Positions 45,084 through 60,000 of a stretch of 64,000 bases of DNA are shown here, piece after piece (position 1 is the stretch's first letter; each line of letters starts with the position of its first letter). Source of the DNA: Cetorhinus maximus (lineage: Eukaryota). The DNA is taken from the NCBI RefSeq assembly GCF_964194155.1, contig NC_135917.1, forward strand, positions 1,674,001 through 1,738,000, given 5' to 3'. A program made the translations under genes and the position numbers. The notes beneath the pieces were generated by a model. The model was given only the letters and a program-made list of their open reading frames with translations, was not told where the DNA came from and made no database searches.

Positions 45084-48000
45084 GTTTGTATACATGTCAA
45101 CTGTGCGTGAGGGATCCTTGTTAGCTGTTTATGGGTTTTGTTTTGCACTGTGCCAAACCAGCTTATATTTGGCTCATTCATTAGGATCCCTATAAGCAGT
45201 GATCAAGGCTTGATACATTCATTGTGGGTCATGCTTAAATACTAGTGTAACCTCTCTGTTGACTTCTGGCTTTCAAGTACCCCCACCCTCAAACCAGGTT
45301 AAGTATGTTTTAAAGTTCTGTCGTCCACACTTTATTCCCATACCTGGTCCATTTCCAGATTCCATTTGTATTCTCCTTCCTCCCTGCACACTCTAAGTCT
45401 GTTTCAAGTGACTAAATGTCCAGCAAGATTGGTATTATACCTCAAAATGCTGAGCCTTGTTTATGTATTAATGGAAAATAAAAGATTTATAAATGGAAGG
45501 CAGGTTTCTGCACCCGTCCAATGATCAAGAGCGAATGGTGTGCTGACGATTAGAAGGTATCTGCGCCTGTGTGTTTTTAAAATAAAAGTGATGACTTTTG
45601 CCAGGATGTGTATTGTGACCATTTCCATATGGGCCATTTCCTGGGGAGGAGGTGAGTGAAGTAGTCATTTGGACTGCAGCACCATTGTTTGTATTGAATG
45701 TCAGAGGCTGTCTATTAATGCTTCGGTGAGACTTCTCTTTAATTGTGAGAAATTCGTCAAGATGAATGCAGAAGCTACCAACTATTTCCTGGGTGGGAGA
45801 GTGGGCTTTTAAATTTATTTAGTAAGCTGACTTGCTAATCAAAAATAGTTAATGTTAGTACCCTTGGTCTAAATAAGTCTGTACATGAGCATTTTCAAGT
45901 GGTGCTTTTAAAGGAACAAATTTATTGTAACTTAATTTTTAGTTATGAAGTGTAGCCTTTTTAACTACTAAGTTCCTCCTTTTCAGAAAGATTATCTGCA
46001 TACTAGAAACAGACATGCATTTGTGTGTTGTTGGCTTTTCAGATTCTTTTGCACAGGTTTGAGGTATAATACCACTGCAGGGCTCTTGTTGCAGGTTGCA
46101 AAATATTTGAAATTGAGTTGCATTTCTTGTGTAAAATAGTGCAGTTTTATGCATTGCTTGCTCCTTGCTGTGGATAGTGCTTGCATGAACATTTTGAGCA
46201 CTGAGATGCAGCTCTGTGTGTAACTGTTACAAAATGGCAGCCATTGCATTCTGTTCAAGCCTTGAACACTTGGTGCATGAAGAAACTTCATTGGGATTAA
46301 TTTGGGGAGATTGTGGTGAACAGTAAACAGTCTTGATGCTGCTCTGTAATTTTACACAAGTATATAAACTGGGTGTTGGACAGGATTTCTAATGCCATGC
46401 ATTAGTTTTATACAGGAGATATTGTTTGGTGTTAATGGTTAAGTTAACCATTTATACTTGTACTTGGTTTAAAATAATGATTCAGTACTAGTAGCCACTA
46501 TAAAAAGCGGATTAATAGTGAAAAAATTGGATTTTTTACATAGATTATTTAAATGAGTTGCTTATTCTTAAGTGACAATTTGATTTAGTGTAATGTTGCT
46601 GGTGGATATATGTCTCTAAAACTTGATGTCACTGTTGGAAGCATGCAACCTTTGCTCAATCATTATGAATCAGCCTTCAGGGCTGTCAAGTTGTTATCAT
46701 GCATTCTGCAATGGATTAATACTAATTCAGTTAAGTGACTTTGGGCTGACACAAGTTGGGGGTTATGCAGCACACAAAAAGCTGTAAGTTGAGCATTTTC
46801 CGCAGCCAGAAAAGTACAATTGTAAACATCTTTCACTATATATGCACTTATGGTGTTGATGCAAGACTACTTTGTAAACAGGTTCTCTCTTGGGTTTTTC
46901 ACACTTTGTACAACCATTTAAGGGGCAACTGGACTAATAGATAAGTATTTACTGAGCACCTGGTGGGAAGCTGATCATTTTACACTCCATCATGTAATCA
47001 GACCACATTATTAATGCATGTGTTCATTTGATGTCAGGATTGATTTTCTCTTGGGGGCCATATGGGGCATTCAGACCCTAAAGTAGGATAACTTGCACAC
47101 CTGGGCAGTTTTGGCTTTATATTGGCTGCTTGTAGTACTGTCCCAAATCCTTTACAGCAGAAGAACACAGTGATGTCAGCCCTTCTCCTGCCTCTGGGGG
47201 AGAAAGCACTGCTCCAAGCGAATTGACTCCAGCTACTGACTCAACAGAATCGGCTGTTACTGAGGTGGCAAGTGAAGCTTCCCAGACTGAAGCCACCACT
47301 GAGAATGCAGTGTCTCAGGCTGTTCAGGAGCTTTCAGGTGCGTTGTTGACAGTGTTAAAATGGTAGCTTTGTCACCATAACCACCTCTAGTAGCCAGGTT
47401 TTATGTTTGGATTCTAACTACAAAAGTTATTTTGCAGCTGCTGTCTAAGATCCCTATTAAAATTAATGCTGTGTAATAACCTTTTGAACTAGTCCATTAT
47501 GTATTTTATGTAGAAGGTACTACAGTAGCAGTAAAGGGGTGTGGTGAGTTCTGTCAGGTGCAGGCAAGTGGAGTTACGTTAGTTTTCAATGTGTGAGAAT
47601 GCCACAAGTTTCTTTTTGAACACATACTTCATGATGCATGCCACTGATAACTCTTCATATCTTTATTATAACTAAATATCACTGAGTTAAACTGATTCAG
47701 GCGAGTGAAGAACTTGCATTTATAAAGTACATTCTCATGTAAGGACATCCCTAAAGCACTACACAAAATGAAGTGCAGTAACCCTGATGTAGGAAAATGT
47801 GTTGGCCAATTTGCGCAAAATAAGCAAGTGGGCTTGCATTCATACAGCACTTTATCTCTTGGGATGGCCCAGAGTCCCACATGTGCTAAGAGCTACTTTG
47901 AAGTGCCATCATTAATGTTTAGGCAAATGCGGCAACTGATTTGCGCAAAATAAAATACAATGTACGTGAGTTTTGGCTGCATGAAGGGTGGTACCATATC

Positions 48001-57000: not shown

Positions 57001-60000
57001 ACTTTCTTTATCGTCAGAATCTAGAGCACCTGTCACTGACTTTCCATCATCTTTCACTCTTTCATCTGCCTCTGATCAACTCACTACCCCATCCCCTGAA
57101 TCATCTTCAGCTGCCCAAATTGATGATGATGATGAGATGCCGCCATTGATTTCTGCTATCGACGAGACTCCCCTCCGCGAAGCTCCTGCCCCACCTGTCA
57201 TTGAGAAGGCAATTCCCAAGACTGCTTCAACTGGAAAGGAGCCTGTGGTGAAGCAGAATGATGAGGGTATTTAGTTTGGTTGAGGTGTGCATGTAGTAGC
57301 GTCCTGCCTAGTTTGAACTGGGAAGTAAAGGCTTGTCCTATAAAAGTTCATGTTTAGGAACGGCTAACTTTTAAGTGAAGCACTCGACTCTGGAGGAGTG
57401 TGTTGTTGGAATGTATTTCTTCTGTCCTCCAGCATGAATGGGGCAGCTTAAAGTTAGCCCGTCCTTCTACAAAGGGAAGTGATGTGGTATGAAATCTGTA
57501 CTTTATGTAAAGTATATGATCCAGAATAATTTCTGTTGTTAGCATTAACTATTTTATCTTGTAAAATGGGGGAAGGGAGAAAGATAAGTTGTAACTACCA
57601 AATATCGCATGTCCTCTTTGAATTTATCAAATGCATCAGTTGTCTTTGGTAATTACTTTCATTTGAGGAATTGCTTTCTTTTGGAACAGGTCAACTACAT
57701 AATGTACAAATTTCAACTGTCCACAAGGTGTTTAGAGCTTGCGTACTAATGGCAACATGGAGTCCGCCTTTTTTATATTTTTTCTTTCACAAGTGGGACT
57801 TAACACTTGAGTGAGCTGGTTTTGAATAGGTTAATCAACACAATTAGTAAACTAATCTGTATTAACATCTTGTCACACATGCTAAAACTGGCCTGCCTCC
57901 CTCAACCTGTGAATATTTGCAGTACACTTGGTTCTTTATATACATTATGCAATTCAAATGAGGACCATTTGTGTACACTGCATACCCAAAGCTTGGGGCA
58001 AACTTGAGTTTGCTTTTATTTTAAACCCCAGATTGTTTTGCAAGTTTGTTGGCCTATTTTCTACGCACAGGATGAGCATTGCAGGCACGAATATGGAGAA
58101 TTTACGACACGTGTATAAGTTGGAGTGTCGTCTGCTACCAAGAACATTCACACTAACCTTTTATTGCTTTCTAGCTTTTATTGCATGGTGTGAAAGCATA
58201 ACCAGTAGACAGCATTGTAATATCCAGATCTGTTTTTCTCCCTTGCCTACAACAGATTGAAGGTAAAAAAAATTCCTGTAATGCCACAAAAGGTGTTTTT
58301 TTTAATACAGTGTATCATTGGGTTCTGAGGTTTGTTGCTTATGGCTTTGTAGAAATAGATCAACAAGTCAATATTGCACCTTTTTTTAAATAAAACTGTT
58401 GTATAAGGTTAAAGCTTTAGTGCACAAGTTTACACTTTTTCTCCACCTTAGCATGGCTGCCTGTTAAACATGGTTATGGTAATTACAATAAAGTGGTGTT
58501 CCTCACATTTTTCCAGACAAGTATCACACTTTCTTTGAAACCCACTAAAGTACCACAAACCTAGGAAATGTGCAGAGTACTGTATTAAATATATGACGTT
58601 TTGTAGGGTCTGGGACAGAATCGGACAGCGATGAGTCGGTACCAGAACTGGAAGAACAGGATACAGCGCAGTCAGCGACACAGCAAGCTCAGGTGTGTCT
58701 GCAAATGTATGAATATAAACACCCTGTAACCCTGTTTCAAAAGGCAAAAGGTCTTTACTGTGTACAGTCCTATCTACTGTCCTCACTCCTCCAGTTTTCA
58801 CATTTTTGTTTGGGTACATTTCCACAAACATTTTCCATGGGATGTGAGCATCACTGGCATTTGTTGCTCATCCCTAATTGCCCTTGAGAAGGTGCTGATG
58901 AGCTGCTGCCTTGAACCACTGCAGTCCATCTGGGGCAGGTTTTTGACCCAGTGACGCTGTAACAGTGATATATTTCCAAGTCAGGATGGTGAGTGGGTTG
59001 GAGGGGAACTTCCAGGTGGTGGCGTTCCCATGTGTCTGCTGCCCTTGTCCTTCTAGATGGTAGAGGTCGTGGGTTTGGGAGGTACTGTTAAAGGAACTTT
59101 GAGTTACTATAGTGCATCTTTTAGTGATTATACACTGTTGCCACTGTGTGGCAGTGGTGGATGAGTTGAAAATCAAGTGGGCTCTTTGCCCTTGATTGTG
59201 TCAAGCTTCTTGAGTGTTGGAAGCACGCTCATCCAGGAAAGTGCCGACTATTCCATCACACTCCTGACTTGTGCTTTGTTGATGGTGGACAGACTTTGGG
59301 GAGTCGGGAGGTGAGTTACTTGCCCAGAATTCCTTGCTTCTGACCTGCTCTTGTAGCCACAGTATTTATATGGCTGATCTAATTCAGTTTCTGGTCAATG
59401 ATGACCACCTCCTCTCTCTCTCTCTCTCCCTCTCTCTCCCCCCCACCCCCACCCCCAAAAGGATGTTATGGTAGTGGGGGGGGAGGCATCGGTAACGGCA
59501 TTGAATGTCACAGGGAGATGGTTGGATTCTCTTGCTGGAGGTGGTCACTGCCTGGCACTTGTGTGGCGAGAATGTTGTCTGCCACATCAGCCCAAACCAG
59601 AATGTTGTCCGGGTCTTGATACATGCATGAATGGATTGCTTAATTATTTGAGGAGCCACGAATAGTACTGAACACTGCAATCGTTAGTGAACATCGCCAC
59701 TTCTGACCTTATGTTGGAGGGAAGTCCATTGATGAAGCAGCTGAAGATGGTTGAGCCTAGGACACTACCCTAAGGAACTCCTGCACCGATGGTCTCCAGC
59801 GACCACAACCATCTTTCTTTGTGCTAGGTATGACTCTGACCAGTGGAGCGTTTCTCCCCACCCCATAAGTTGCATTGAATTCGGTTTTACTAGGGTTCCT
59901 TGATGGCACACTTGGTCAAATGCTACCTTGATGTTGTGGGTAATCACTCTCTCCTTACCTCTTGTTCAGCTCTTTTGTCCATGTTTGGACCATTTTGGCA

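What the first reader, a model, noticed from the sequence alone, without database searches (positions are those of the whole stretch)
47158..57266. Modular skNAC: three phase 1-1 cassette exons instead of one
Seen: exons of 180, 99 and 3174 nt between exon 2 and the GSGTESD exon. All are multiples of 3, open in frame and Ala/Pro/Ser/Glu/Asp-rich, and the first has an in-frame NAGNAG acceptor. Established: mammalian skNAC comes mainly from one giant muscle-specific exon at this position. Inference: combinatorial splicing could add up to 1151 aa and yield intermediate isoforms, and skNAC would date to early jawed vertebrates.
Basis: partly seen in the sequence, partly recalled or inferred. Interest (0 to 1): 0.7.

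Follow-up and report, generated by a model that had tools for sequence, protein, structure and literature searches.

The report
Modular shark skNAC with splice-out middle
This is the shark version of a known muscle-type extension of the ribosome chaperone gene NACA: two small optional exons plus a giant exon whose 2.9-kb middle can be spliced out, which likely gives both a giant protein and short forms that keep only the conserved tail; databases already model most of it.

Summary
The three open, phase 1-1 exons are real, in a shark NACA gene. They are not three simple cassettes. The 3174-nt exon holds an internal donor after 45 nt and two internal acceptors 249 and 156 nt before its end, so 2880 or 2973 nt can be removed in frame. 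Contigs from relatives' probable RNA runs show exon 2 to B, B to the giant exon, the giant body, and the middle spliced out. Exon A rests on database models (10 of 18 species) and conservation; I did not see it in reads. Database models from 16 of 18 cartilaginous fishes have the middle removed. The exon's 3' tail carries the homologue of the mammalian SMYD1-docking PPLIP motif, here PPLIS, and is shared with chimaera, teleosts, amphibians, snakes and mammals, so skNAC dates at least to the jawed-vertebrate ancestor. Modularity is not shark-specific: newt, frog, fish and primate models show it too. Muscle specificity is untested. This scan noted the splice-out middle before in two other shark genomes. 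Verdict: real, a variant of a known kind, modest interest.

The parts
43177..43218 (+). Likely non-coding exon 1 (pyrimidine-rich start inferred; donor GCA|GTAAGT at 43218)
   Evidence: Sequence; start position inferred, not tested on reads
45012..45083 (+). Exon 2, ATG at 45014, MPGEATETV...QAET, ends in phase 1
   Evidence: its last 27-28 nt are the loose end joined to exon B in runs X1, X2
47158..47337 (+). Cassette exon A, 60 aa (59 aa with the second AG at 47161), acidic Ser/Glu/Ala/Thr-rich, net charge -12
   Evidence: in database models of 10 of 18 cartilaginous fishes; skipped in contigs X1, X2; inclusion not seen in reads here
51379..51477 (+). Exon B, 33 aa, Ala/Pro-rich
   Evidence: joined to exon 2 (X1, X2) and by a GT..AG joint to 54093 (X1, X2, X4); in models of 18 of 18 species
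54093..54137 (+). C1: first 45 nt of the giant exon, ends at internal donor CCA|GTGAGT
   Evidence: contig in X1 leaves at 54137 and continues with the letters of 57018 onward; 79-100% identical in the 9 species compared
54138..57017 (+). Giant body: 2880-nt in-frame optional middle (2973 nt to the second acceptor), 960 aa, Ala/Pro/Leu/Ser/Asp-rich, net charge about -91
   Evidence: contiguous with B and C1 in contigs X2 record 16 and X4 record 17 over 54090-55339, no gaps
55351..56204 (+). GC-rich tandem array inside the body (30-nt unit x11.5, then 21-nt unit x25 at 100% match), encoding (DA)AGQAPLPA repeats
   Evidence: repeat unit and length differ between species
57018..57266 (+). C3L: 249-nt 3' part of the giant exon, internal acceptor TTTCTTTATCGTCAG|
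57111..57266 (+). C3S: 156-nt 3' part, second internal acceptor ATCATCTTCAG|; carries the conserved tail
   Evidence: database models only
57140..57154 (+). PPLIS in [11 protein letters not shown], positional homologue of the mammalian SMYD1-binding PPLIP; last Pro replaced by Ser
   Evidence: motif role from PMC6837996 and PMC10340688 passages
58607..58692 (+). Constitutive GSGTESD exon, phase 1 acceptor
61632..62932 (+). Three further constitutive NACA exons (61632-61709, 62279-62425, 62804-62932), NAC domain

Best explanation
This is the shark NACA gene, in which exons A and B and a giant exon with internal splice sites insert 59 to 1151 aa of acidic, likely disordered sequence into the N-terminal arm of alpha-NAC, and splicing likely sets how long a spacer separates the N-terminus from a short conserved tail. 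Shown: the exons, the internal donor at 54137 and acceptor at 57018, and relatives' contigs for exon2-B, B-C1-body and C1-C3L. From database models: A optional, second acceptor 57111, NAGNAG. Inferred: the body is an exitron (an in-frame retained intron); keeping it gives the giant skNAC-type protein (1273-1366 aa), removing it gives 315-406 aa forms that keep the tail. Inferred from mammals: the giant form is made in striated muscle under RBM24/RBM20-type control, and the tail ([11 protein letters not shown]...[10 protein letters not shown]) is a docking site for a MYND-domain protein such as SMYD1, which would bring it to ribosome-bound NAC during sarcomere protein synthesis. The body acts as a low-constraint acidic spacer.
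For: (3 of 4 runs laid anything): B to 54093 GT..AG joint in X1, X2, X4; exon 2 to B loose end in X1, X2; 54137 to 57018 loose end in X1; body contiguous with B in X2, X4; contig depth on B 2415 against about 9 on intron pieces in X2, as expected of RNA; of 18 species (86 models), 16 have a model with the middle removed, 14 a long-body model, 18 exon B, 10 exon A (one found); both removable lengths are multiples of 3; small modules are far more conserved than the body (chimaera: B 78, C1 93, C3S 53, body 33-37%). Body length runs from 591 to 1510 aa with different repeat units in 11 species. Body differs 1.9% from a relative against 3.3% for intron pieces (Fisher p 0.02) and has no gaps in 1250 nt. 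Tail: 62 of 76 non-chondrichthyan hits carry [DE][LM][PL]PLI[PS]; a profile from 14 bony vertebrates alone finds the exon end in 7 of 7 chondrichthyans (5.0-16.0 bits; best of 200 shuffles 5.5). Mouse L1952 and K1975 lie 44 and 21 aa before the GSG exon (PMC10340688); shark L and K lie 40 and 20 aa before it. SMYD1 is present in this genome. PRIM1 lies upstream as in teleosts.
Against: No run is on record as RNA and all holders are relatives; the one same-label run (X18) laid nothing. Tissue is unknown, so muscle specificity is untested. Exon A inclusion and the 57111 acceptor were not seen in reads. The middle-removed junction is one contig in one run. The models are computed isoform predictions, and short reads cannot phase distant exons. 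The strict PxLxP is broken here (PPLIS in sharks and skates; PPLIP in other rays and chimaera), and the only PxLxP in exon C is an unconserved PGLTP at aa 148. Amino-acid change in the body is near neutral (6 synonymous of 21 changed codons, 0.31 expected). One of the 7 profile scores (skate, 5.0) is below the best shuffle. GU-rich, TGCATG and TCTT counts near the exons are too small to support any named splicing factor.
Confidence: 0.72

Rival explanations
1. The short C1-C3 forms are the main regulated products, in muscle or other tissues, and the giant form is a minor retained-intron product kept open only so that it escapes decay.
For: In X1 the B-C1 joint contig has depth 755 against 88 for the body contig (contig depth is a poor measure). 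Middle-removed models are in 16 of 18 species against 14 for long forms. Body amino acids change near neutrally. The internal donor matches the GTGAGT consensus.
Against: The frame of 591-1510 aa is intact in 14 species including chimaera, with 33-37% identity still detectable. In X2 and X4 the B joint itself sits on the body contig, at depth 452 against about 9-15 for neighbouring introns in X2. The giant form is the functional one in mouse (10.1101/2025.10.23.684272).
Confidence: 0.17
2. Three independent whole-exon cassettes combine freely to give eight isoforms, a shark-specific design.
For: All three are phase 1-1. Models A only, A+B, B+C and A+B+C exist.
Against: C is internally spliced. 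No model has a C part without B (0 of 71, with a search bias). Multi-cassette and internally spliced forms also occur in newt (20 models in one cluster), frog, platyfish (isoform numbers to X45) and primates.
Confidence: 0.07
3. The intermediate isoforms are alignment or annotation artefacts caused by the tandem repeat, and only short alpha-NAC and one giant form are real.
For: Many long models differ only by 13-224 aa inside the repeat array (sawfish, skate, catshark), which looks like repeat mis-mapping. The nearest database model of the long form is N-truncated at the array.
Against: The C1 donor and C3 acceptors lie over 800 nt outside the array, are canonical, and recur at the same residues from chimaera to lamniform sharks. 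An assembly-level contig, independent of annotation, shows the junction.
Confidence: 0.04

Closest known systems
Mouse skNAC (Naca exon 3, about 6 kb, 2187 aa; 10.1101/2025.10.23.684272, PMC10340688)
   Same: Same gene, same insertion point after the first 23 aa, giant Pro/Ser/Ala-rich in-frame insert, same acidic-PPLI tail about 40-44 aa before GSGTESD.
   Different: Here two extra small exons precede it, the middle can be removed almost entirely, the insert is strongly acidic (net -103 in C against -1 for the human skNAC-2 insert) and the motif reads PPLIS.
Human skNAC-2 (NP_001106674.2, 925 aa) and primate 846-aa models
   Same: Shorter forms that keep the tail; 10 of 76 hits join an upstream point directly to APADEDELPPLIP, the position of shark acceptor 57111 (inferred from proteins only).
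   Different: They keep about 600 aa of the 5' part; the shark short forms keep only 15 aa (C1).
RefSeq/Ensembl NACA isoform models of Carcharodon, Cetorhinus, Scyliorhinus, Amblyraja, Callorhinchus and others
   Same: They already contain A, the NAGNAG variant, B, C1, C3L, C3S and the body.
   Different: Uncurated predictions without tissue or function. The model 327/327 identical to this exon's 3' part (XP_078390720.1) starts inside the exon after the repeat, so the full 1058-aa exon is not in it.
Exitron-type splicing of disordered regions in jawed vertebrates (10.64898/2026.10.06.756961)
   Same: A donor inside coding sequence removes most of a disordered region and keeps the folded core; reported to recur from human to elephant shark.
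   Different: Worked out on TARDBP; NACA is not named in its main text (the one match is a supplier's name); its supplements were not seen.
Big tau exon 4a and giant ankyrin exons (listing only)
   Same: Large optional acidic or disordered exon, with properties kept while sequence drifts.
   Different: Unrelated genes; analogy only.

Membership tests
NACA (alpha-NAC) orthologue | [10 protein letters not shown]-terminus, GSGTESD exon and NAC domain exons | tested here: met
   homologues carry PF01849 and PF19026
NACA (alpha-NAC) orthologue | Next to PRIM1, and not the paralogue or a retrocopy | tested here: met
   PRIM1 exons at 7553-25654; the other two genome hits are an intronless truncated copy and a 90% paralogue
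skNAC (mammalian definition) | Large in-frame insert between residue 23 and GSGTESD | tested here: met
skNAC (mammalian definition) | Insert comes from one exon | tested here: not met
   A, B and a composite C; bony-vertebrate models also depart from this
skNAC (mammalian definition) | Proline-rich low-complexity insert | tested here: met
   C is 15.7% Pro, 16.9% Ala, but net charge -103
skNAC (mammalian definition) | PxLxP (PPLIP) SMYD1-binding motif near the exon end | tested here: not met
   Homologous site reads PPLIS here and in all sharks and skates examined; PPLIP in sawfish, Mobula, Narcine and chimaera
skNAC (mammalian definition) | Inclusion restricted to heart and skeletal muscle | not testable with these tools
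   Runs carry no tissue label
skNAC (mammalian definition) | RBM24/RBM20-dependent inclusion | tested here: inconclusive
   Motif counts too small
Exitron | Internal donor and acceptor inside one coding exon, canonical GT..AG | tested here: met
   54138 GT; AG before 57018 and 57111; junction in X1
Exitron | Removed part is a multiple of 3, stop-free, and both forms exist | tested here: met
   2880 and 2973 nt; both forms in X1 and in models
Exitron | Flanks behave only as parts of one exon | tested here: not met
   C1 and C3 are also used separately in models (B+C3, A+B+C1), so 'in-frame retained intron between two cassette exons' fits equally

The most novel reading that the evidence does not exclude
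The ancestral core of skNAC is the 52-aa tail, not the giant exon: jawed vertebrates from sharks to primates keep an internal acceptor just before the acidic PPLI motif, so short 'mini-skNAC' proteins dock SMYD1-type partners on NAC without the spacer, and the giant form is a regulated retained intron. The insertion site may predate the NACA/NACAD duplication, since the paralogue in this genome also has a 3602-codon acidic frame upstream of the same phase-1 exon.
Probability: 0.25. Interest if true: 0.55.

Novelty: new variant of a known kind. Interest (0 to 1): 0.3.

Why it matters
skNAC is needed for sarcomere and heart integrity in mammals (10.1101/2025.10.23.684272, passages), yet what its 2000-aa insert does is unclear. 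The shark gene splits the insert naturally into parts: a deeply conserved tail, two highly conserved small exons, and a body free to vary from 591 to 1510 aa. That gives a ready design for testing whether the tail alone, or the spacer length, carries the function. It also sets the origin of skNAC at or before the jawed-vertebrate ancestor. A specialist would find this tidy rather than surprising: zebrafish skNAC is published (title seen in a reference list) and the isoforms sit in public annotations.

Tried and rejected
No RNA holder was listed on record for 54093-55340; 12 holders are guessed RNA from relatives. Run X18 (same species label) laid 0 contigs, no evidence either way. Exon A was never laid on reads, so its inclusion in transcripts rests on models. 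Complex prediction of the SMYD1 MYND exon with C3S gave no answer (score 0.28, mark 0.34); the isolated MYND also lacks the S-sequence said to be needed (PMC6837996). Splicing-factor motif counts were uninformative. A genome search with C3S found only this locus. blastp of 6 NACA inserts against the paralogue's giant frame gave no hit at E 0.1 and it has no PPLI motif, so shared ancestry of the two giant exons is positional only. Model isoforms that differ within the tandem array were set aside as probable mapping artefacts. A second C1 donor 39 nt further on is used in models of 5 ray and skate species but is absent here (AT in place of GT). My regular expression missed exon A in one bamboo shark model; corrected by eye. 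Li et al. 2009 (zebrafish) and Park et al. 2010 were not held, so the published zebrafish exon structure is unchecked. Lamprey and hagfish were not tested; none appears among the 89 hits, which is not evidence of absence. Literature: no listed paper describes a cartilaginous-fish skNAC (sknac+shark: 3 papers, unrelated by title; NAC+muscle-specific+elasmobranch: 0; naca+exitron: 3); subscription papers are not covered.
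Full report
Observation. Exon 2 is 45012-45083 and the GSGTESD exon starts at 58607. Among 60 open candidates in 30000-58600, the 54 with at least 45% A/P/S/E/T/D are only these three and pieces nested in them. The giant frame cannot be chance (p about 2e-22 for its 772 non-repeat codons); the two small ones need other evidence. About 280 codons of the giant exon are a tandem array.

Gene. This is NACA of a lamniform-type shark: the last 358 aa of the exon are 96% identical to Carcharodon and 327 of 327 aa match a Cetorhinus model. PRIM1 lies upstream. The genome has two other NAC-domain hits, an intronless truncated copy and a 90% paralogue.

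Real anatomy. Searches for long and short relatives and their clusters gave 86 models from 18 cartilaginous fishes, which I decomposed. B is in 18 of 18 species; A in 10 (one found by eye), with the 3-nt NAGNAG variant in 4. The giant exon is composite: a donor after 45 nt (CCA|GTGAGT, 54137) and acceptors at 57018 and 57111 remove 2880 or 2973 nt in frame. Sixteen species have a model with the middle removed and 14 a long form. C1 and C3 also appear separately (B+C3, A+B+C1). All 71 full-start models with any C part contain B, but the short-form search was seeded on A/B/C1 and could miss C3-only forms. These are computed models, not curated cDNAs.

Transcript evidence. No run is on record as RNA; 12 holders are guessed RNA from two related organisms. 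I laid 4 of the 18 listed runs on 51300-55340; 3 laid contigs. They show exon 2 joined to B (X1, X2), B joined to 54093 by a GT..AG joint (X1, X2, X4), B-C1-body in one contig (X2, X4), and 54137 joined to the letters of 57018 (X1, one contig). Exon B is far deeper than intron pieces in X1 and X2, which fits RNA. Exon A and the 57111 acceptor were outside the stretch, and 72 loose ends were not shown. Tissue is unknown.

Constraint. Against catshark, A is 98%, B 100%, C1 100%, C3S 90% and the body 68-71% identical; against chimaera 58, 78, 93, 53 and 33-37%. The body spans 591-1510 aa in 11 species with different repeat units. In the laid relative it differs at 1.9% of bases with no gaps, against 3.3% with gaps in four intron pieces, but only 6 of 21 changed codons are synonymous, as expected without selection on residues. 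So the frame and composition are kept while sequence drifts: a spacer.

The tail and its age. The exon ends in [11 protein letters not shown]...[10 protein letters not shown]. Bony vertebrates end in [DE]LPPLIPPE...K.PV.KN[DN]K; 62 of 76 non-chondrichthyan hits carry the motif, further upstream in several teleosts. A profile built from 14 bony sequences finds this exon end as the best domain in the window (13.1 bits, E 0.013 with bias correction) and at the insert end in 7 of 7 chondrichthyans, 6 of them above all 200 shuffles; those 14 were picked from a search seeded on the shark region, a bias. In mouse, PPLIP binds the SMYD1 MYND domain (PMC6837996, passages), L1952 is needed and K1975 is methylated (PMC10340688, passages). 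The shark L and a K sit 40 and 20 aa before the GSG exon, against 44 and 21 in mouse. The last Pro is Ser in sharks and skates and Pro in other rays and chimaera, so canonical docking is uncertain here. SMYD1 exists in this genome. The shared tail places skNAC at or before the jawed-vertebrate ancestor. It may be older: the paralogue (NACAD by recall) has a 3602-codon acidic frame 17 kb upstream of a phase-1 GSCNESDSDD exon, without detectable similarity, and an unchecked scan note reports a similar frame in sea squirts (e1-7882546).

Modularity elsewhere. Papers describe one exon of about 6 kb under RBM24/RBM20 control (10.1101/2025.10.23.684272, passages; PMC13669657, passages). Databases show more: human skNAC-2 of 925 aa, a newt cluster of 20 models differing by 21-293 aa blocks, frog and platyfish series, and a 1-aa variant in python. 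Ten of 76 hits, all Old World monkeys, join an upstream point to APADEDELPPLIP, where shark C3S starts (inferred from proteins).

Mechanism. Most likely, most tissues skip everything and make 215-aa alpha-NAC (established for mammals; inferred here). Where B is included, C1 and C3 follow; keeping the middle gives the giant form, removing it gives 315-406 aa forms with the tail; A is an optional acidic add-on. The tail likely docks a MYND protein on ribosome-bound NAC, and the body sets distance. Confidence 0.72 overall: high for the splicing anatomy, moderate for muscle specificity, low for SMYD1 binding.

Novelty. The listed searches found no paper on cartilaginous-fish skNAC; Li 2009 was seen only as a reference title (also looked for in PMC3826989, passages). 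Exitron-type removal of disordered regions across jawed vertebrates is in a preprint (abstract, outline and passages); its supplements, not seen, may list NACA. I had stated the exitron reading before one search showed two earlier scan notes with the same reading in other sharks; they are not independent support. Verdict: real, new variant of a known kind, interest 0.3.

Noticed in passing
L013 (G000:C8, about 52594216-52594800): Intronless, 5'-truncated NACA retrocopy, 98-100% identical to the window's exons, starting at GTESD; open to the stop codon, no start codon.
   Followed up: partly
G000:C4:134090896-134101701 (L019/L020) and L015: NACA paralogue (NACAD by recall) with a 3602-codon Ser/Glu/Asp-rich open frame and a 96-nt x12 repeat, 17 kb upstream of a phase-1 GSCNESDSDD exon.
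   Followed up: partly
P0130, P0132 versus P0118 (residue 688): Two of three human 925-aa skNAC records read ELLPLIP, not ELPPLIP, losing the first Pro of the SMYD1-binding motif; chimpanzee, orangutan and baboon have Pro.
   Followed up: no
window 7553-25654, + strand: PRIM1 (DNA primase small subunit) exons upstream of NACA on the same strand; two teleost models fuse the two genes.
   Followed up: partly
window 54176/54177: Rays and skates use a second C1 donor 39 nt downstream; this shark has AT at that place.
   Followed up: partly
window 47700-48360: Several degenerate copies of a short unit around TTGCGCAAAATAA, about 120 nt apart, downstream of exon A; not reported by the tandem finder.
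   Followed up: no
window 47158-47337 and 51379-51477: Low-complexity exons A and B are 98-100% identical at protein level to catsharks, and B shows 0 base differences in runs X2 and X4, more than a disordered linker would need; suggests nucleotide-level constraint.
   Followed up: no
P0140, P0134, P0147, P0141: In several spiny-rayed teleosts the PPLIP motif lies 244-455 aa upstream of the GSG exon instead of about 45.
   Followed up: no
L003:1456-1632 (-): SMYD1 MYND-domain exon of this genome, best PDB match SMYD1 at E 5e-25.
   Followed up: partly
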